Assembly: GCF_009914755.1 (NCBI RefSeq)
Contig: NC_060925.1
Reading direction: 5' to 3' (one strand)
Source: the human T2T-CHM13v2.0 reference genome, Homo sapiens
Length of the DNA stretch: 64,000 bases
In this document: positions 1-58,145 of the stretch, piece after piece
How positions within the stretch are numbered: position 1 is the stretch's first letter
How the letters are laid out: each line of letters starts with the position of its first letter
The notes under the pieces: model-generated
What the model was told of the DNA's origin: nothing
The model's input: the letters and a program-made list of their open reading frames with translations, nothing else
The model's database searches: none
Translations under genes and position numbers: made by a program

Positions 1-739
1 CATGACTATGGAATGTTTCAGCAGAGACGGGGTCCAGATAGAACAACCTAATCCCCCATGCTGGTGTGTGCTATAATAGAGATACAGAAATTCCCATATA
101 TCTGCAGTGGAAAACACAGAATCATTAAGAGAGCCAAGAAGCATCACAAGAGAGCCAAGAGGAATCATTAATCCAGGAGTGAGTGACTGAAATTAAACTG
201 TGCTAAAGTCCATGCATCTTTTGAGGTTGTAGGGTGGGCAGTGGGGGAGTGGTTAAAATACCAAATAACTTTAGACTTTATCAAGCATGAAAAATAAAAT
301 TCTCAAACATAGTAACTAAAGAATAGAAATAAAATGTATAAATTTGAAATCTGTAGAGGAAAATACAGAATAAGAAAAAATAGGATATAAAGAGCCAAAA
401 AAAAAAAAAAGGCCAATACATACTCCCAAAAAGAAGGGGGAAAAGAAGCATAGAAAAGGAACCACAAAGTAAAATAGTAGAAACATATGCAAATACATCA
501 ATAATTAATGAGTAGAAGATAATCAATGGATAGAAGAACTCACAAGTTAGGACGCAGAGGTTGTCAGATTGGACTTTTTAAATTCCAGACATTACTAAAA
601 CGTAAGACTATGAAATTACTGAAAGTAAAAAGGTGGTAAATATATGCCAGAAAAATACTAATGGAATCAGAGTAACTATATTAGTATTAGATAAAATAGA
701 TGAAATAAAAACAAAACATTATCAGTGATAGTCACTATG

Positions 740-3145
740 TGTGATTCACTATATAAACAGAATTAAAAACAAAAACCATATAATCATCTCAGTAGACGCA
801 GAAAACGCTTTTGATAAAATCTAACATCTCTTCATGATAAAAAACCCTCAACAAACTAGACATTGAAGAAATGTACCTCGAATTAATAAGAGCCATCTAT
901 GACAAACCCACAGCCAACATCATACTGAATGGGCAAAAGTGAGAAGCATTCCCCTTGAGAACTGGAACAAGACAAGATGCCCACTATCACCACTCTTATT
1001 CAACATAGCACTGGAAGTCCTAGCCAGAACAATCAGGCAACAGAAAAAAATAAAAGGCATCAAAACAGGAAAAGAGGTCAAACTATCTCTCTTCATGGAT
1101 GATATGATTCTATACCTTAAAAACCCTAAAGACTCTGCCAAAAGGCCCTTGGAACTGATAAATGACTTCAGTAAAGTTTTGGGATACCAAATCAATGGCC
1201 AAAAATCAGTAGCATTGCTATATACCAATACATCCAAGCTGAGATCGAAATCAAGAACACAGTCCCTATACCATAGCTACAAAAAGAATAAAATACCTAG
1301 GAATATATCTAACCAATTAGCTGAAAGGTCTCTACAAGGCGAACTACAAAATGCTGCTGAAAGAAATCAGAGATAACACAAACAAGTGGGAAAATATTTC
1401 ATGCTCATGAATTGGTAGCATCAAAATTGTTAAAATGACCATACTTCCCAAAGCAATCTACAGATTCAATGCTATTCCTATCAAGCCAGCAATGTCCTTT
1501 TTCACAGAACTAGGAAAAAAAAGAGCCTGAATAATCAAAGCAATCCTAAGCAAAAAGAACAAAGCCAGAGGCATCACATTACCCACTTCAAACTACACTA
1601 CAAGGCTACAGTAGCCAAAATAGCATGGTACTGGTACAAAATAAACACATATACCAATGGAACAGAATAGAGAGCCCAGAAATAAAGCCATACACCTGCA
1701 ACCTTCTGATCTTCAACAAGCTTGACAAAATAAGCAATGGGGAAAAAGACTCTGTATCCATTAAATTGTGCTGGGATAACTGGCTATCTATATGCTGAAG
1801 AATGAAACTGGACCCCATCTATATGCTGAAGAATGAAACTGGTCCCTTTATACAAAAATTAACTCAAGAGGGATTAAAGACTTAAATGTAAGACCTCAAA
1901 CTATAACAATTCTAGAAGAAAACCTAGGAAATAACCTTCTCCATTTCAGCCCTGGCAAAGAATTTATGGCTAAGTCCCCAAAAGCAATTGTGACAAAAAC
2001 AAAAATTGATAAGTAGGACCTAAGCAAACTAAAGAAAGAGCTTCTGCACAGCAAGAGAAACTACCAAGAGAGTAAACAGACAACCTGCAGAATGAGAGAA
2101 AATATTTGCAAACCATGCATCCAACAGAGGTCTAATATCCAGAATCTATAAGGAGTTTAAACAAATCAAGAAGCAAAACGCAAAGAACTCCATGAAAAAG
2201 TGGACATGCATGTCTTTTTTTCTAAAGAAGAAAGAAGACACACATGTGGCCAACAAGCATATAAAAAAAAAGCTCAATACACTGATCATCAGAGAAATGC
2301 AAATCAAAACCACAGTAAGATACCATCTCACACCAGTCAGAATGGCTTTTGTTAAAAAGTCAAAAAATAACAGATGTTGGTGAGGCTGTGGAGAAAAAGG
2401 GACACTTCTACACTGTTGGTAGGAATGTAAATTAGTTCAGCCACTGTGGAGAGCAGTTTGGAGATTTCTCAAAGAACTAAGAGCTGAACTACCATTGGAC
2501 CCAGCTATCCCATTACTGGGTATATACCCAAAGGAAAATAAATCGTTCTACCAAAAGGACACATGCACCCAATGTTCATCATCATGCTATTCACAATAGC
2601 AAAAGCATGGCATCAATGCAGATGCCCATCAATGGTGGATTGGACAAAGAAAATGTGGCACATATACCCAATGGAATACTATGCAGCCATAAAAAAGAAC
2701 AAAATCATGTCCTTTGCAGCAACATGGATCTAGCTGGAGGCCATTATTCTAAGCTAAGTAATACATAAACAGAAAACCAAATATGACATGTTCTTACTTA
2801 TAAGTGGGAGCTAAATATTAGACATATGGACACATGGACATAAAAATGAGAAATAGACACTGGGGACTATTAGAAGGGATAGAGAGAGAGTGACACAAGG
2901 GCTGAAAAACTACCTATTGGCTACTATGTTCACTACGTGGGTGACAGGTTCTATCATACCACAAACCTGAGCATCACACAATATGCCCAAGTAACAAACA
3001 TGTACTACACTACAAGGCTACAGTGGCCAAAACAGCATGGTACTGGTACAAAAGTAGACACGTAGACCAATGGAACAAAATAGAGAGCCCAGAAATAAAT
3101 GCATACACCTACAACCCTCTTTAATTTGACACCAAATAAAAGTGG
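740..3145 (+). mobile_element. 5'-truncated L1 (L1PA15/16-like), ORF2 RT to 3' UTR
   Basis: L1 ORF2 fragments ([10 protein letters not shown]); 3' UTR gggctgaaaaactacctattgg...catcacacaatat. Confidence 0.85.
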
Positions 3146-3309
3146 ACCCACAGGAAGAAATAAAGACCATCAGATGCATACATACACGCATATAAACATG
3201 TGTGTATGTATATATACATATACATAGAATATCTTTTAAATCTTATTTTCTTAATTTCATTAAACAATATATGACTTTAAAGAAAAAATCAAACTGTATT
3301 GTTGGGCTT

Positions 3310-3515
3310 ATTATATATGTTTATATATAATATAATATGTAATACTTATATATTATATAAATATATTATGTATATTTATATATAATATATTATGTATATT
3401 TATATAATATATTATGTATATTTATATATAATGATATATTATATTGTGATATTTTATATATAATATAATAGTATATTTATATATAATATAATATATTATA
3501 TTATATATAAAATAT
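3310..3515. repeat. AT-rich (TA)n-derived tandem repeat
   Basis: About three copies of a 22-mer (tatataatatattatgtatatt) within near-pure A/T sequence. Confidence 0.9.
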
Positions 3516-3519
3516 CACC

Positions 3520-4370
3520 AATAATAGTAAGGATATGAAAAAGGGGAAATGGAAATATACTTTTGCAAGGTTGCTATATTTTACCTGAAATAATTTAACA
3601 TAAACTTAAAGAAGGTTTAAAACCAGTTAAACTGCATATTGTAATCCCTAAAGCAACCACTAAAAAGTAATCCAAAGAGAGAGAACTAATAAATCAGCTG
3701 ACACATTAAAATGAAATATTGAATAATACTTGATTAATACAAATAATGGCATGAAAGGATAAATAGGGAAATATATAATAACCAGATGAGACGAACAGAA
3801 AAAAATAGCAAAATGGCAGACTTGAATTCAACCACATCAATAATTACATTAAAGATTACTAGACTAACCACTCCAATCAAAGAAAGAGACTGATGAACTG
3901 GATTTTTTAAAAAGCAGGGACTGACAGCCTGTGTGTTATACTGAAGAGATGAACTTCAAATAGAAAGACAAAAATAGCTTTAAAATAAAAACAATAGAGA
4001 AAGCTATGTTATGCAAACAGTGCGCAAAAGAAATATGGAGTAGCTATACTATTATCAGACAAAATTAACTACCGATAAAGAATATTATCAGAGACAAGGA
4101 GGAACACTTCATGATAACAGAGGATCAATGCATCAGGTAGATTATGTGCTTCATAACAGAGCTTCAAATTACATGCAGCAAAACTTTCAGAAATAAGGAA
4201 ATAAATACACAAATTCAAACTCACAGATGGAGAATTTAGCAAGTCTTTAGAAATCGATATACAACTAACAAAAATATAGTAAGAATACTGAATATCTGAA
4301 TAACACTACCAATCACCTTAGTCTAATTGACGTTTATAGAACATTAAACACAACTGTAGAATACAAATTC
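3520..4370 (+). mobile_element. Old L1M fragment (inter-ORF region / ORF2 endonuclease start); resumes at ~6436
   Basis: gtaatccctaaagcaaccact, atcagacaaaat and gaatacaaattc motifs typical of L1M. Confidence 0.65.
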
Positions 4371-6437
<2,067 letters not shown>

Positions 6438-24712: not shown

Positions 24713-24837
24713 GACAAATGGGAAGAGCTCCTTGGCCAGGATTCCCCTCTGGAGGTCTTTCAGCACGTCTCCTTGATGACCCTGGACACCATCATGAAGA
24801 GTGCCTTCAGCCATCAGGGCAGCATCCAGGTGGACAG
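24713..24837 (+). CDS. CYP4A22: CYP4A22 exon 5 (125 nt)
   Basis: cacag|GAC; [41 protein letters not shown]; AG|gtcagt. Confidence 0.97.
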
Positions 24838-45904: not shown

Positions 45905-47345
<1,441 letters not shown>

Positions 47346-47349
47346 ATAG

Positions 47350-53528
<6,179 letters not shown>

Positions 53529-54099
53529 TTACAGAATTCCCATTTCACTCTTTTTATAGATGGAACTCTTTGATGAGATGCTCCATCTTTCTCTCTATTT
53601 TCTAAAACATATTAATCATGGCTATTTTAATATTTCTGTCTGAATACTCAATATCTGTTTCTCCTATGGGATTATTTCTGTTGTCTGCTTTGGTTTTTCT
53701 TTGGCTTTTGGTGAATGGGTCATCATGCCTACTGATTTCTTATTAAATGCTGAGCATTGTGTGTGAGAGATCATAGAGACTCTGGTTGGTGTTACCTTTA
53801 GCTAAAGAGGGTCAAGTTATCTTCTGGCAGTCACACAGAATACTGTCAGAGCCCCACAGTGTGGTCCATAGGACGTAGGCAGTTTGGACACAGGATTTCC
53901 TTTTGATGTTTGCAAATTGCTTTGCTTTACAGTAGTTGTAATTATACTGTACATTTATTTTGTTCAATTTCTCTCTATGTCACAGCCCAAACAAGCACTA
54001 AAAGGCACCCATAGAGGTTGGAGTTTCAGGCATATGTAAGGAAAAGGGCCAGTAGACACTGATGAGCATTTTTGTGATGTGATTTTCATCTCTTTCCAG

Positions 54100-54993
54100 G
54101 ACAAATGGAAGAAGACCATTGCTGATGCACATCTGAAATCTTCTGAACACATTTCCCAGTGACCCCGAACACTATTATGAAGTATACCTTCAGTCACAAG
54201 GTAGTCATTCAGGCTGCTCTCACAAAATACCACAGAATGGATCACTTATAAGCAACAGAAATGTAGTACTCACAGTTCTGGAGGCTGGACATCTGAGATG
54301 AGGGTGCAGCATGGTCAGGTGCTGGTGAGGGCTCTCTTCAGCATAGTATTCACAGTTCTGGAGGCTGAACGTCTAAGATGAGGGTGCAGCATGGTCAGGT
54401 TGGTCAGGTGCTGATGAGGGCTCTCTTCAGCATAGTACTCACAGTTCTGGAGGCTGGATGTCTGAAATTAGGGTGCAGCGTGGTCAGGTGCTGGTGAGGG
54501 CTCTCTTCGGGGCTGCAGACTGCTGTCCTCTCGCTGTGTCCTCACACGGCAGAAAGAGAGCAAGAGAGCTTGCTGGGGTCCCTTTTATAAGGGCACTAAT
54601 CTCATTCATGAGGGCTCCATCCTCATGACCTAATTTTTTCCAAAAGGCCCCACCTTCTAATAACATCACACTGGGGGCTAAGATTTAAACACATGAATTT
54701 GAGGGGGACACATACATTCAGTCTATAACACCAGGGCAGTGCCCAAGTGAACAGGTTATGAGTAAAGGACAAGAAGTAAACTCATTCGCCACCAGTCATT
54801 TCATCCGTTAGTATGCTGCTCCACCTCTTCTCTTCCAGAACCCTTAGACTCCTGCCCAGAAGTGGTGTCTAACATTACCAAACTCATCCACCCTTGCCAG
54901 AATACTTTCCTGCATCACAACGACCTGGTTTACAAATTCAGCCATCAGAGCTTCCATTTTAATAAAGATTGCCAGGTCGCCATGACCACACAG
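54100..54993 (+). pseudogene. Unprocessed CYP4Z-like (CYP4 family) pseudogene fragment: exon 5 (54100-54201 + 54731-54754, split by MLT1A0) and exon 6 (54839-54993)
   Basis: ttccag|GAC AAA TGG gives DKWKKTIADAHLKSSEHISQ/(fs)TPNTIMKYTFSH, then after the LTR QGSAQVN AG|gt. An 84-nt intron follows, then ttccag| a 155-nt exon reading T/LDSCPEVVSNITKLIHPCQNTFLHHNDLVYKFSHQSFHFNKDCQVA/HDHT. Splice phases match CYP4A22 exons 5-6. Confidence 0.88.
54202..54730 (-). mobile_element. MLT1A0 LTR with an internal ~80-bp tandem triplication
   Basis: ttcaggctgct...aaaataccacag start and gggggacacatacattcagtctataaca end; 5-bp TSD caagg / ccagg. Confidence 0.85.
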
Positions 54994-55429
54994 TTTTGTC
55001 TTGGGCTTTGCATTGCCTGAGACCTCTATAAAACAACCAACTGCCTAAGACACAAACCCTGGTGATGGGTGCTTTCACTGTGGTGGTTGGACAAAATACG
55101 GCATAGAGATAGTCCTCAAGAAATGAATGGTAGCTGAACTTGAGGCAGGGCAAGGCCAGTTCTAGCATCCCGAACACCTGACTTCTAGCCAGGGTTCTAT
55201 CTGCCCTCACATCTCCCCAAGGATCCATCAATGGCCACTCCACTCAGACCCCCAGCCTGGGCAGACTCCCCTCTATGCACTGGTAATGGGGGAGTTCCTG
55301 GTCCAGTATTGATCTTCTCATCAGTTTTCACATTCAGTCCATAACACCAGGGCAGTGCCCAACTGAACAGGTAAAGGACAAAAAGTAAACTTCACATTCA
55401 TGGGACGATCAATGCTGAACCAGTAACTA

Positions 55430-56962: not shown

Positions 56963-58145
56963 TCGAGATATTGCAGGCAAGGAAAGGAAAATCACGATGG
57001 CTGTCATTCACTGAGCATACTGCATGCTTTCTTTACATCCATTTACTCTTCACCACAACCTCATAAGATGGGCCTCATTTTATCCCTAATTTGCATATTC
57101 AGTCCCTGATATACCCTCGTTGGGGTACATCCCACTAATATAAAATTGGCAGGATGGGATTTGCTCAGGGAAATTTGGCTTCAAGCTCATGCACATAGCC
57201 ACTAGGCTACACCTGCCTTGAGTTTAGATTCCTCTCGCAGATGTGAATGGCTGTATTCCAGCAGGAAAGGTCTCCCTAGCTGCAGTGTAGAGGAAAACTT
57301 GGGGGTAAAAATAAAAACAAGGGAGCAGGCAGCTGCAAACATCAGGCAAGATCGAGGCTTGAACCTGGAGGGAGATGTGTTGGAAAGAACCTGGAGGGAG
57401 ATATGTTGGAAAGTGAAACTCAGGGACTGAGGGAGAGGGGGATTCTGGGTGACTCCCCTATCTCTGGTCTGGGTGAATGGATGCCACTTACAGGAACAGA
57501 GGACTCAGGTTGGTGAAAGATCAAGAATTCCATTTTGGACCTGAGGTACCTGTGGAGCTGTGCAGGAGGGAGTGGAGCTGAAGGCGCTGATCTAGAAGTT
57601 GATACTTTACTGGAAGCAGTGTAACTGAGTGCAAGGGATAAGGTCTCCATGTCAACACATAGCTCTCGGAGACCTCCTATATTCCAGGACACTTGCACAT
57701 TGCAATAAAGAGGTGTATGTGGTCTTTGCCTCACAAAGTTCAGAGTTCACAATCTTGTTCAGAGAGATGGGCGGCATGACCAGGGTGAGCCTGCAGGCTC
57801 ACAGAAGCTTGATGAGCTGAGGGCAGGTGGTCAGGAACAGCTTCCCAGATAAAATGGTGATCATCCTATTATACTGAGAGCGGAAGAATCAGATAGACCA
57901 TCTTACCTTTCAACAGGGAGCCGGACAATAGTGTTTTTGGTGACAACAGTCTCAGCAGAGTGTTGGGGAGAGCGACAAGGCTACAGGTGCTGAGTAGTGA
58001 GTGGGAAGGATGGAGGTGGACACAGCAAATGCCACCACTCCTCTTAGATGCTTGACAGGGTCCCTCCCCACTTTCCCACATGCATGTTTCCAAATGGACT
58101 GCATGCTCTGCAAAGGCAAACACTGTTGGCTTCTTTATCTCCCCA

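What the first reader, a model, noticed from the sequence alone, without database searches (positions are those of the whole stretch)
54100..54993. Hidden fossil of a lost CYP4Z-like P450 gene, with exon 5 split by an LTR
Seen in sequence: an acceptor ttccag|GACAAATGG opens an exon that aligns to CYP4A22 exon 5 in this window (DKW...TPNTIMKYTFSH vs [13 protein letters not shown]). An MLT1A0 LTR with a caagg/ccagg TSD interrupts it. It resumes as CAG GGC AGT GCC CAA GTG AAC AG|gt (QGSAQVN vs QGSIQVD). After an 84-nt intron (CYP4A22 intron 5 is 368 nt) comes a 155-nt exon 6, the same length as the CYP4A22 exon, reading TLDS...NTFLHHNDLVYKFS...CQVAHDHT across two compensating frameshifts. Established knowledge (recalled): CYP4Z1 exon 6 reads TLDSYLKAV...NNFLHHNDLVFKFS, and CYP4B1 has CQVAHDHT. 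Inference: this is a separate CYP4Z-like paralogue with ancestral features that died no later than the MLT1A0 insertion, so the CYP4Z lineage may be old. The ORF track misses it and I do not recall an annotation here, but I cannot check that.
Basis: partly seen in the sequence, partly recalled or inferred. Interest (0 to 1): 0.82.

Follow-up and report, generated by a model that had tools for sequence, protein, structure and literature searches.

The report
Two-exon relic of CYP4Z-like gene
A decayed two-exon leftover of an old duplicate of the CYP4Z cytochrome P450 gene lies between CYP4A22 and PDZK1IP1, split by an ancient retroelement LTR; it is an ordinary, non-functional pseudogene fragment absent from RefSeq and from one published list of CYP4 pseudogenes.

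Summary
Window 54100-54993 (+) holds CYP4 exon 5, an 84-nt intron and a 155-nt exon 6. Profile E-values are 1.7e-9 and 8.1e-16. Exon 5 is split by a 529-nt dispersed repeat (54202-54730) flanked by a 5-bp target duplication. The relic belongs to the CYP4X/Z clade and is closest to CYP4Z. A whole-genome DNA search returned only CYP4Z1 and CYP4Z2P (68% over 271 nt). Homology to CYP4Z runs into introns 4, 5 and 6. Equal-span scores are fossil-Z1 about 154, Z1-X1 about 120 and fossil-X1 about 60. Tree support for "sister to Z" is weak (UFBoot 54-63). No other exon survives, so a once-complete gene is not shown. It is dead: frameshifts, a lost exon 6 donor and the LTR insertion. Non-coding divergence from CYP4Z is K2P 0.49±0.05, which suggests a pre-primate duplication. 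It lies 15.5 kb outside the recent CYP4A11/A22 segmental duplication. RefSeq does not annotate it, and a published list of 26 CYP4 pseudogenes names only CYP4Z2P for the Z subfamily. It is a new member of a known kind (P450 "detritus exons") and of modest interest.

The parts
53887..54099 (+). Tail of fossil intron 4. It is co-linear with the last ~180 nt of CYP4Z2P intron 4. The acceptor AG is at 54098-54099.
   Evidence: nhmmer of 53487-54099 against the CYP4Z2P locus gives E=0.0013, aligned to chr1:46760892-46760716. Identity is 63.5% over 181 aligned nt. Acceptor read.
54100..54201 (+). Fossil exon 5, left part (102 nt). It carries a 3-nt deletion and a 1-nt deletion (frameshift; TGA at 54160-62 in the native frame).
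   Evidence: Exon-5 profile hit at 54100-54212, E=1.7e-9. Alignments.
54197..54201 (+). Target-site duplication, copy 1 (CAAGG).
   Evidence: Aligns to CCAGG of CYP4Z1/CYP4A22 exon 5, as does copy 2.
54202..54730 (.). Inserted dispersed repeat (LTR-like; MaLR/MLT1-type by recall only), 529 nt.
   Evidence: The whole-genome search gave 6740 first-look candidates. 40 were scored, giving the self match plus 43 matches to other copies at 73-83% identity. Most of these cover insert positions 237-529; four cover the first 138. Several reach the exact ends 1 and 529.
54264..54508 (.). Internal tandem triplication inside the insert (unit ~80-89 nt, 3.0 copies, 83% matches).
   Evidence: Tandem Repeats Finder. 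Other genomic copies skip insert positions 139-236.
54274..54461 (-). Annotated exon of the lncRNA CYP4A22-AS1. It lies wholly within the triplicated part of the insert.
Evidence: The minus-strand AG (54462-63) and GT (54272-73) were read.
54731..54735 (+). Target-site duplication, copy 2 (CCAGG).
54736..54754 (+). Fossil exon 5, right part (19 nt), followed by an intact GT donor at 54755-56.
   Evidence: Aligns to the last 19 nt of CYP4Z1/CYP4A22 exon 5. It is inside the nhmmer hit 54737-55124, E=9.8e-36.
54755..54838 (+). Fossil intron 5 (84 nt, GT...AG).
   Evidence: Lengths are Z1 79, Z2P 79, X1 83, A22 368 and B1 302 nt. Identity is 45/79 to Z1 (0 of 1000 shuffles reach the score) and 37/83 to X1 (3 of 1000).
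54839..54993 (+). Fossil exon 6 (155 nt). It has a +1 insertion near the start and a -1 deletion near the end. The donor is lost (TT at 54994-95).
   Evidence: Exon-6 profile hit with E=8.1e-16. Identity is 65.4% to Z1. BLASTP against Z1 exon 6 gives 20/40 identities, E=5e-12.
54994..55124 (+). Head of fossil intron 6, co-linear with the first ~118 nt of CYP4Z1/Z2P intron 6.
   Evidence: Identity is 71.2% over 118 nt. For the first 60 nt the score against Z1 is 24 (0 of 1000 shuffles) and against X1 is 1 (3 of 1000). Supported also.

Best explanation
This is a dead genomic remnant of an old duplicate of the CYP4Z-lineage P450 gene. It comprises the tail of intron 4, exon 5, intron 5, exon 6 and the head of intron 6, about 700 nt without the insert. 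It lies in single-copy DNA at the PDZK1IP1 end of the CYP4ABXZ cluster.

Shown: it keeps the CYP4 exon sizes and phases and the short X/Z-type intron 5. It is closest to CYP4Z in coding and in non-coding sequence. It is disabled by a retroelement LTR inserted into exon 5 with a 5-bp target duplication, by single-base indels in both exons, and by loss of the exon 6 donor. No other CYP4 exon remains between CYP4A22 and the end of the window.

Inferred: it arose by tandem duplication of the ancestral CYP4Z gene, whole or in part, before the primate radiation. It has drifted neutrally for most of the time since. The rest was removed by deletion and by later L1 and numt insertions, or was never copied.

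It encodes nothing and has no P450 function. Its only present use is indirect, in that the inserted LTR supplies an exon of the antisense lncRNA CYP4A22-AS1.
For: Significance: nhmmer exon profiles give E=1.7e-9 and 8.1e-16, co-linear on the + strand. blastn against the CYP4Z2P locus gives 68.4% over 272 nt, E=1.6e-20. nhmmer of 54737-55124 against CYP4Z2P gives E=9.8e-36.

Z affinity:
- The whole-genome DNA search with 54736-55100 returned 3 of 3 candidates, namely self, CYP4Z1 and CYP4Z2P.
- Exon 6 nucleotide identity is Z1 65.4, X1 57.5, B1 49.7 and A 46-48%.
- Exon 6 amino-acid identity is Z1 25/50, B1 17/50, X1 13/50 and A 12/50.
- Intron 5 is 84 nt against 79 (Z), 83 (X), 368 (A) and 302 (B), and it is alignable to Z1.
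- The intron 6 head matches Z1 far better than X1.
- Equal-span nhmmer scores are fossil-Z1 156/152, Z1-X1 121/118, fossil-X1 63/57, fossil-A22 37/35 and fossil-B1 17/14.
- The exon 6 tree places fossil+Z+X at UFBoot 95.

Insertion: both TSD copies align to the same 5 nt of the parent exon. The insert is a dispersed repeat whose relatives end at the same boundaries.

Death and neutrality: frameshifts and the lost donor are seen. Changes private to the fossil fall 22/17/14 on codon positions 1/2/3 (chi-square p=0.40).

Age: non-coding K2P to CYP4Z2P is 0.49±0.05 over 378 nt.

Location: the relic lies outside the 95.4% inverted A11/A22 duplication, which ends at window 38588.
Against: - Tree support for fossil+Z is weak (UFBoot 63, 56 and 54 for exon 5, exon 6 and both together).
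- Quartet sites in exon 6 are 10 for fossil+Z1, 8 for Z1+X1 and 2 for fossil+X1.
- In the last 43 columns of exon 6 the fossil is equidistant from Z1, X1 and A (23/43 each) and nearest to B1 (27/43).
- Exon 5 is as close to A (82-83/121) as to Z1 (82/121). At the 19 sites where Z1 and A22 differ, the fossil sides with Z at 8, with A at 7 and with neither at 4.
- With flanks cut to 60 nt, fossil-Z1 non-coding identity (54.3%) barely exceeds Z1-X1 (52.6%). A 26-nt indel in the intron 4 tail makes those cut windows partly non-homologous.
- Generic searches see nothing. The Pfam p450 genome scan listed 104 matches, none at this place. Pfam on the exon 6 peptide gave no hit, but the genuine CYP4Z1 exon 6 gave none either. 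PDB phmmer found no P450.
- The codon-position test has little power. Changes private to Z1 are also flat (7/7/9, p=0.84).
- Only two of twelve exons exist, so a complete ancestral gene is not demonstrated.
Confidence: 0.8

Rival explanations
1. Partial duplicate. Only a short genomic piece around exons 5-6 of the ancestral CYP4Z gene was ever copied here, so there never was a complete third CYP4Z-type gene.
For: Exon profiles for exons 1-4 and 7-12 find nothing at E<0.1 outside CYP4A22 in the window. Detectable homology to the CYP4Z2P locus stops at 53887 and 55124. Fossil-private changes show no third-position excess (22/17/14). That fits a piece that was never under selection.
Against: The corrected frame has 0 stops in 92 codons. 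Three of four splice sites are intact. The neighbourhood has been reworked by a 6.1-kb L1-like insert at 47358-53486 and by other repeats. Only 10 kb remain before PDZK1IP1, so deletion of the other exons is plausible. Two neutrally decaying copies at K about 0.5 would lose detectable intron homology anyway.
Confidence: 0.3
2. Offshoot of the CYP4X/Z stem. On this reading the relic split off before CYP4X and CYP4Z separated and is not specifically Z-like.
For: There are 8 quartet sites for Z1+X1 against 10 for fossil+Z1. The fossil keeps the C-Q-V...H-D-H-T end of exon 6 seen in CYP4B1 and CYP4A, whereas both Z1 and X1 have changed it. UFBoot for fossil+Z is only 54-63.
Against: The fossil-Z1 score (about 154 bits) exceeds Z1-X1 (about 120), although the fossil decays neutrally. 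The intron 6 head is 71% identical to Z and barely alignable to X1. The genome-wide search finds only Z1 and Z2P. Exon 6 amino-acid identity is 50% to Z1 against 26% to X1.
Confidence: 0.15
3. CYP4A-derived detritus, like the named fragments CYP4A26P, 27P, 43P and 44P.
For: Exon 5 is 68-69% identical to CYP4A22/A11, as high as to Z1. Amino-acid identity in exon 5 is highest to A (18/39). The relic lies 23 kb downstream of CYP4A22.
Against: Exon 6 is only 46-48% identical to A. Intron 5 is 84 nt, not 368. The flanks do not align to A22 (406 and 237 of 1000 shuffles reach the scores). The equal-span score to A22 is only about 36. The exon 5 resemblance is explained by CYP4Z1 exon 5 itself being 85% A-like. 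The named CYP4A fragments are 74-87% identical to A.
Confidence: 0.02
4. Chance resemblance, with no real P450 remnant.
For: The generic Pfam and PDB searches are blank.
Against: Two adjacent, co-linear hits have E=1.7e-9 and 8.1e-16. Other values are E=9.8e-36 and E=7.7e-18 genome-wide. The positive control (true CYP4Z1 exon 6) is also blank in Pfam.
Confidence: 0.01

Closest known systems
CYP4Z2P (the only named human CYP4Z pseudogene)
   Same: It is a CYP4Z-lineage pseudogene in the same 1p33 CYP4ABXZ cluster. It is the best non-self match of the relic, together with CYP4Z1.
   Different: CYP4Z2P is a recent, transcribed, 12-exon copy. It is 94-100% identical to CYP4Z1 in exons 1-11. The relic is two exons, 65-68% identical, with non-coding K2P 0.49. 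It is split by an LTR and lies outside the recent duplication.
CYP4A26P, CYP4A27P, CYP4A43P, CYP4A44P (single-exon 'detritus' pseudogenes of the same cluster)
   Same: These are the same kind of object, namely isolated exon remnants of dead tandem duplicates. Here they score as exon 12, exon 12, exon 1 and exon 2 respectively.
   Different: They are CYP4A-like (74-87% identity to CYP4A11/A22). They are named and are annotated in RefSeq. The relic is Z-like, has two exons with the intron between them, and is not annotated in RefSeq.
CYP4Z1 (the functional relative)
   Same: Shared features are the exon 5 and 6 sizes and phases, the short intron 5 (79 against 84 nt), the NxFLHHNDLV(F/Y)KFS stretch, and the A-like exon 5.
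   Different: CYP4Z1 has all 12 exons and an open frame. The relic keeps the C-Q-V...H-D-H-T end of exon 6 found in CYP4B1 and CYP4A, which CYP4Z1 has replaced.

Membership tests
Cytochrome P450 family 4, 1p33 CYP4ABXZ-cluster gene structure | Significant similarity to CYP4 exons 5 and 6, adjacent and in order on one strand. | tested here: met
   nhmmer exon profiles give E=1.7e-9 (exon 5) and 8.1e-16 (exon 6).
Cytochrome P450 family 4, 1p33 CYP4ABXZ-cluster gene structure | Exon sizes and phases (exon 5 is 125-128 nt starting in phase 0; exon 6 is 155 nt). | tested here: met
   The fossil has 121 nt (125 minus deletions of 3 and 1 nt) and 155 nt (+1/-1 indels). Boundaries are at AG|G and AG|GT.
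Cytochrome P450 family 4, 1p33 CYP4ABXZ-cluster gene structure | Match to the Pfam p450 domain (PF00067). | tested here: inconclusive
   No hit for the fossil exon 6 peptide, but none for the true CYP4Z1 exon 6 either. The genome scan lists no match at this place, and only 92 of 398 candidates were scored.
Cytochrome P450 family 4, 1p33 CYP4ABXZ-cluster gene structure | The catalytic core. By recall, the I-helix lies in exon 8 and the haem-binding cysteine region in the last exons. | tested here: not met
   No fossil of exons 7-12 at E<0.1 in the window outside CYP4A22. A marginal exon-10-like hit at 57040-57073 (E=0.11) was not recovered by single-sequence search. The relic is therefore a fragment, not a P450 gene.
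CYP4Z subfamily (lineage membership of a pseudogene) | Nearest relative by sequence is CYP4Z, in coding and non-coding parts. | tested here: met
   Exon 6 is 65% identical to Z1 against 58% to X1. Only Z1 and Z2P are found genome-wide. Equal-span scores are 154 to Z1 against 60 (X1), 36 (A) and 16 (B).
CYP4Z subfamily (lineage membership of a pseudogene) | Monophyly with CYP4Z in a tree, to the exclusion of CYP4X. | tested here: inconclusive
   UFBoot is 54-63 for fossil+Z and 95 for fossil+Z+X on exon 6. Quartet sites are 10 against 8. Only human paralogues were available.
CYP4Z subfamily (lineage membership of a pseudogene) | Nomenclature rule of thumb of more than 55% amino-acid identity within a subfamily (recalled). 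| tested here: not met
   Identity to Z1 is 25/50 in exon 6 and 16/39 in exon 5. This is expected for a neutrally decayed fragment, so the rule is not meaningful here.
LTR retrotransposon insertion (MaLR/MLT1-type, name recalled) | A dispersed multi-copy element with defined ends, flanked by a short target-site duplication. | tested here: met
   There were 6740 first-look candidates. 40 were scored, giving 43 non-self matches at 73-83% identity, several of them ending at the insert's ends. The 5-bp duplication matches at 4 of 5 positions, and both copies align to one site of the parent exon.
LTR retrotransposon insertion (MaLR/MLT1-type, name recalled) | Assignment to subfamily MLT1A0 by comparison with a repeat library. 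| not testable with these tools
   No Dfam or RepeatMasker library is on hand. The annotation file gives masked stretches without family names.

The most novel reading that the evidence does not exclude
The relic is what is left of a complete third CYP4Z-lineage gene. On this reading the gene arose by tandem duplication before the boreoeutherian radiation and sat at the original distal end of the cluster next to PDZK1IP1. It was killed early and has since preserved, as a neutral time capsule, ancestral Z features: an A-like exon 5 and the C-Q-V...H-D-H-T end of exon 6, which both CYP4Z1 and CYP4X1 later lost. If so, the CYP4Z subfamily had already duplicated in early placental mammals. That would contradict statements that CYP4Z1 is an evolutionarily new, primate-specific gene. 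It would also date the A-to-Z exon 5 exchange to before that duplication.
Probability: 0.4. Interest if true: 0.4.

Novelty: new member of a known kind. Interest (0 to 1): 0.25.

Why it matters
It adds one unnamed entry to the catalogue of human P450 pseudogene fragments.

It also gives evidence, from within the human genome, that the CYP4Z lineage duplicated long before primates. The non-coding K2P to CYP4Z is 0.49±0.05, and the exon is split by an old dispersed LTR.

The literature seen here is inconsistent on the age of CYP4Z.
- Another paper calls 4X/Z "specific to mammals" (PMC4076195, passage).
- A third lists a dolphin orthologue (PMC4964396, passage).

The relic also helps in reading the cluster's history. 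It marks old single-copy DNA just outside the recent CYP4A11/A22 duplication. It shares the A-like exon 5 of CYP4Z1. Practical consequences are small, because nothing suggests a function.

Tried and rejected
- Generic domain searches were blank and uninformative. These were the Pfam PF00067 scan of the genome, Pfam on the exon 6 peptide with the true CYP4Z1 exon 6 as a failing positive control, and PDB phmmer (a single chance hit at E=1.3).
- Weak tblastn hits of CYP4X1 at 52363-52565 (E=4.3) looked like a possible exon 4. They lie inside a 3.6-kb masked repeat (49945-53563) and were not seen by the exon 4 profile. I rejected them as chance.
- The exon-10-like hit at 57040-57073 has E=0.11 and a 15-nt exact match to Z1 exon 10. 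4 of 2000 random windows reach its score. Single-sequence nhmmer against the A22, B1 and Z2P genes and the X1 and Z1 exon 10 pieces did not recover it. It is left as inconclusive.
- I asked whether the named CYP4A fragments could be the missing exons of the same dead gene. They are A-like (74-87%) and not co-linear with the relic, so I rejected the idea.
- I asked whether the relic is part of the recent segmental duplication. It is not. The 95.4% block ends at window 38588, and no second copy exists genome-wide.
- Non-coding distances on flanks cut to 60 nt gave fossil-Z1 54.3%, Z1-X1 52.6% and fossil-X1 48.7%, against shuffles at 44.4±3.9. I judge this a poor test, because a 26-nt indel shifts the intron 4 windows. 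I report it as evidence against.
It was replaced by ultrafast bootstrap with HKY+G4.
- Literature. Passages were read in PMC4076195, PMC1866355, PMC4964396 and PMC12468015. No paper seen mentions a second CYP4Z pseudogene. The term CYP4Z3 occurs in one unrelated paper, seen as a listing only. One search was too loose to be useful. The four papers were seen as listings only, and by title and abstract none concerns P450 genes. Supplementary tables of PMC4076195 (Table S1) and PMC4964396 (Tables S2-S4) were not seen and may bear on the pseudogene list and on CYP4Z orthologues.
- Not used: the search for homologous proteins and the protein-atlas search. An exon-sized query sees only proteins of similar length, and a spliced protein may not be typed. 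No other-mammal sequence was therefore available.
Full report
WHAT IS THERE. I read window 53900-55200 and the CYP4A22 exon 5-6 region. After the acceptor ttccag, an exon starts at 54100. It runs to 54201, where it ends in CAAGG. A 529-nt insert follows (54202-54730), then CCAGG (54731-54735), then 19 more exon bases (54736-54754) and a GT donor. After an 84-nt intron (54755-54838, GT...AG) comes a 155-nt exon (54839-54993). Its donor is lost (TT). Both 5-nt copies align to the same CCAGG of CYP4Z1 and CYP4A22 exon 5. The insert therefore entered the exon itself and duplicated its target.

Exon 5 is 121 nt against 125 in the parents. It has a 3-nt deletion and a 1-nt deletion that creates a TGA in the native frame. 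Exon 6 has a +1 insertion near its start and a -1 deletion near its end. Read in the CYP4Z1 frame with X at the three breaks, the 92 codons hold no stop.

IS IT MORE THAN CHANCE. I took the exon coordinates from RefSeq. I then built one nucleotide profile per exon from CYP4A22, A11, X1, Z1, B1 and Z2P. On the whole window, outside CYP4A22 itself, only two hits are significant. These are exon 5 at 54100-54212 (E=1.7e-9) and exon 6 at 54846-54993 (E=8.1e-16). They lie on the same strand and in order. tblastn with CYP4Z1 gives E=1.9e-6.

WHICH CYP4. Several lines agree.
- Exon 6 identity is 65.4% to Z1 and Z2P, 57.5% to X1, 49.7% to B1 and 46-48% to A.
- Exon 6 amino-acid identity is 25/50 to Z1, 17/50 to B1, 13/50 to X1 and 12/50 to A. 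BLASTP of fossil exon 6 against Z1 exon 6 gives 20/40 identities, E=5e-12.
- Intron 5 is 84 nt. The parents have 79 (Z1, Z2P), 83 (X1), 368 (A) and 302 (B1).
- The fossil intron aligns to that of Z1 at 45/79, with 0 of 1000 shuffles reaching the score. It aligns less well to X1 at 37/83, with 3 of 1000.
- A whole-genome DNA search with 54736-55100 returned three places, namely itself, CYP4Z1 and CYP4Z2P. The two Z hits are each 68% identical over 271 nt, with E=7.7e-18, and run 90 nt into intron 6.
- nhmmer against the CYP4Z2P locus extends the co-linear homology over 53887-54094 (intron 4 tail, E=0.0013) and 54737-55124 (E=9.8e-36).
- The first 60 nt of intron 6 score 24 against Z1 (0 of 1000 shuffles), 1 against X1 (3 of 1000), and nothing against A22 or B1.
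- Over equal spans (60 nt of intron 4 through 60 nt of intron 6) the summed scores are fossil-Z1 156/152, Z1-X1 121/118, fossil-X1 63/57, fossil-A22 37/35 and fossil-B1 17/14.

The fossil and Z1 are thus the closest pair, even though the fossil is decaying.

EVIDENCE THAT DOES NOT FIT SO WELL.
- With only human paralogues, ultrafast bootstrap for fossil+Z is 63 (exon 5), 56 (exon 6) and 54 (both). The X/Z/fossil clade gets 95 on exon 6.
- Quartet counts on exon 6 with B1 as outgroup are 10 (fossil+Z1), 8 (Z1+X1) and 2 (fossil+X1).
- The last 43 columns of exon 6 are equidistant from Z1, X1 and A (23/43) and nearest to B1 (27/43). This reflects the C-Q-V...H-D-H-T ending, which the fossil shares with CYP4B1 and nearly with CYP4A.
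- Exon 5 is as close to A (82-83/121) as to Z1 (82/121). The reason is that CYP4Z1 exon 5 is itself 84.8% identical to CYP4A22 exon 5, while the other eleven exons are 43-69% identical.
- Non-coding identity on flanks cut to 60 nt does not separate fossil-Z1 (54.3%) from Z1-X1 (52.6%). I think this is because of a 26-nt indel in the intron 4 tail.

I conclude that the relic belongs to the X/Z clade with good support. It is most likely on the Z side and kept an ancestral exon 6 ending.

THE INSERT. A genome-wide search with 54202-54730 had 6740 first-look candidates. 40 were scored, giving the self match and 43 matches to other copies. Most cover insert positions 237-529 at 77-83% identity. Four cover the first 138 at 73-81%. 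Several reach the exact ends. Positions 139-236 are extra, because the insert holds a tandem triplication (54264-54508, unit about 80-89 nt, 83% matches). This is a dispersed LTR-like element with a 5-bp target duplication. Its resemblance to MaLR/MLT1 LTRs is my recollection. The subfamily MLT1A0 could not be tested. The RefSeq exon 54274-54461 of the antisense lncRNA CYP4A22-AS1 lies wholly in the triplicated part, with AG and GT on the minus strand.

AGE AND HISTORY. Over 378 aligned non-coding positions (intron 4 tail, intron 5, intron 6 head) the relic is 65.1% identical to CYP4Z2P, giving K2P 0.49±0.05. That is about 0.25 per lineage. This exceeds the roughly 0.17 that I recall for the human lineage since the human-mouse ancestor. 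That figure is recalled, not computed here. Alignment optimisation and constraint on the Z side both make the estimate a lower bound. The duplication is therefore probably older than primates, and possibly older than the boreoeutherian ancestor.

Changes private to the fossil fall 22/17/14 on codon positions 1/2/3 (p=0.40 against equality), as expected for neutral drift. The test is weak, because Z1-private changes are flat too (7/7/9).

The relic lies 15.5 kb beyond the end (window 38588) of the inverted, 95.4%-identical CYP4A11/A22 duplication. A 6.1-kb L1-like insert lies just upstream at 47358-53486. The 3' end of PDZK1IP1 is only about 10 kb downstream. No other exon is found, so deletion of the rest and a partial duplication cannot be told apart.

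WHAT IS KNOWN. RefSeq lists CYP4Z2P and CYP4A26P, 27P, 43P and 44P in the cluster, but nothing at this place. In my scan the four CYP4A fragments score as exons 12, 12, 1 and 2 respectively. They are 74-87% identical to CYP4A. They are the same kind of object as this relic but from another subfamily. A review lists 26 human CYP4 pseudogenes with only 4Z2P for Z, and uses the term 'detritus exons' (PMC4964396, passages). Another paper states that 41 of 58 human CYP pseudogenes are fragments and that 4X/Z is mammal-specific (PMC4076195, passages). A 2025 review calls CYP4Z1 likely primate-specific (PMC12468015, passage). No paper seen mentions this relic. GENCODE, the Nelson lists and the papers' supplements could not be consulted.

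VERDICT. The finding is a real, correctly described, non-functional two-exon remnant of an old CYP4Z-lineage duplicate, split by an LTR. It is a new member of a known kind and of modest interest. It bears on the age of CYP4Z and on the history of the cluster.

Noticed in passing
L034 (chr1:46962076-46962200, CYP4Z1 exon 5) against window 24713-24837 (CYP4A22 exon 5): CYP4Z1 exon 5 is 84.8% identical to CYP4A22 exon 5, while the other eleven exons are 43-69% identical. CYP4Z1 intron 5 stays X/Z-like at 79 nt. This looks like an A-to-Z (or Z-to-A) gene-conversion tract confined to exon 5. The fossil shares the A-like exon 5.
   Followed up: partly
L017, chr1:46838804-46838930 and 46839123-46839167 (+): Two fossil exons here have no pseudogene entry in RefSeq. 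They resemble CYP4B1 exons 2 and 3 (83% and 76% identity; profile E=4.6e-8 and 0.021). They lie inside the alternative first exon of CYP4X1 transcript NM_001320289.2 (46838775-46839167), whose 3' end coincides with the end of the exon-3-like stretch.
   Followed up: partly
window 54274-54461 (-): An exon of the lncRNA CYP4A22-AS1 is made entirely from the tandem-triplicated part of the LTR that splits the fossil exon 5. The splice dinucleotides were read.
   Followed up: partly
L005, chr1:46720724-46720895 (-) against the annotated last exon 46720492-46720575: The stretch of CYP4Z2P homologous to CYP4 exon 12 (E=4.5e-39) is not the last exon of the RefSeq CYP4Z2P transcript. That last exon lies about 150 nt further downstream and matches the profile only partly (E=3.5e-9). 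This explains the 41.7% 'exon 12' identity.
   Followed up: no
window 57040-57073 (+): This is a marginal exon-10-like match (E=0.11) with a 15-nt exact match to CYP4Z1 exon 10. 4 of 2000 random windows reach its score. It was not recovered by single-sequence search. It may be chance or a last trace of a further exon.
   Followed up: yes
window 15649-38588 against chr1:46822125-46799141; window 12-4374 against chr1:46720150-46715942: The recent inverted duplication blocks are 95.4% identical around CYP4A22/A11 and 93-96% identical downstream of CYP4Z1/Z2P. Read in gene orientation, the block order is Z1 then A22, but A11 then Z2P. One simple inverted duplication of a Z-A block does not explain the arrangement.
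   Followed up: no
window 47358-53486: A 6.1-kb L1-like element lies immediately upstream of the relic. It is 87-95% identical to many copies elsewhere in the cluster. The annotated mitochondrial pseudogene MTND1P34 (45916-47296) is next to it.
   Followed up: no
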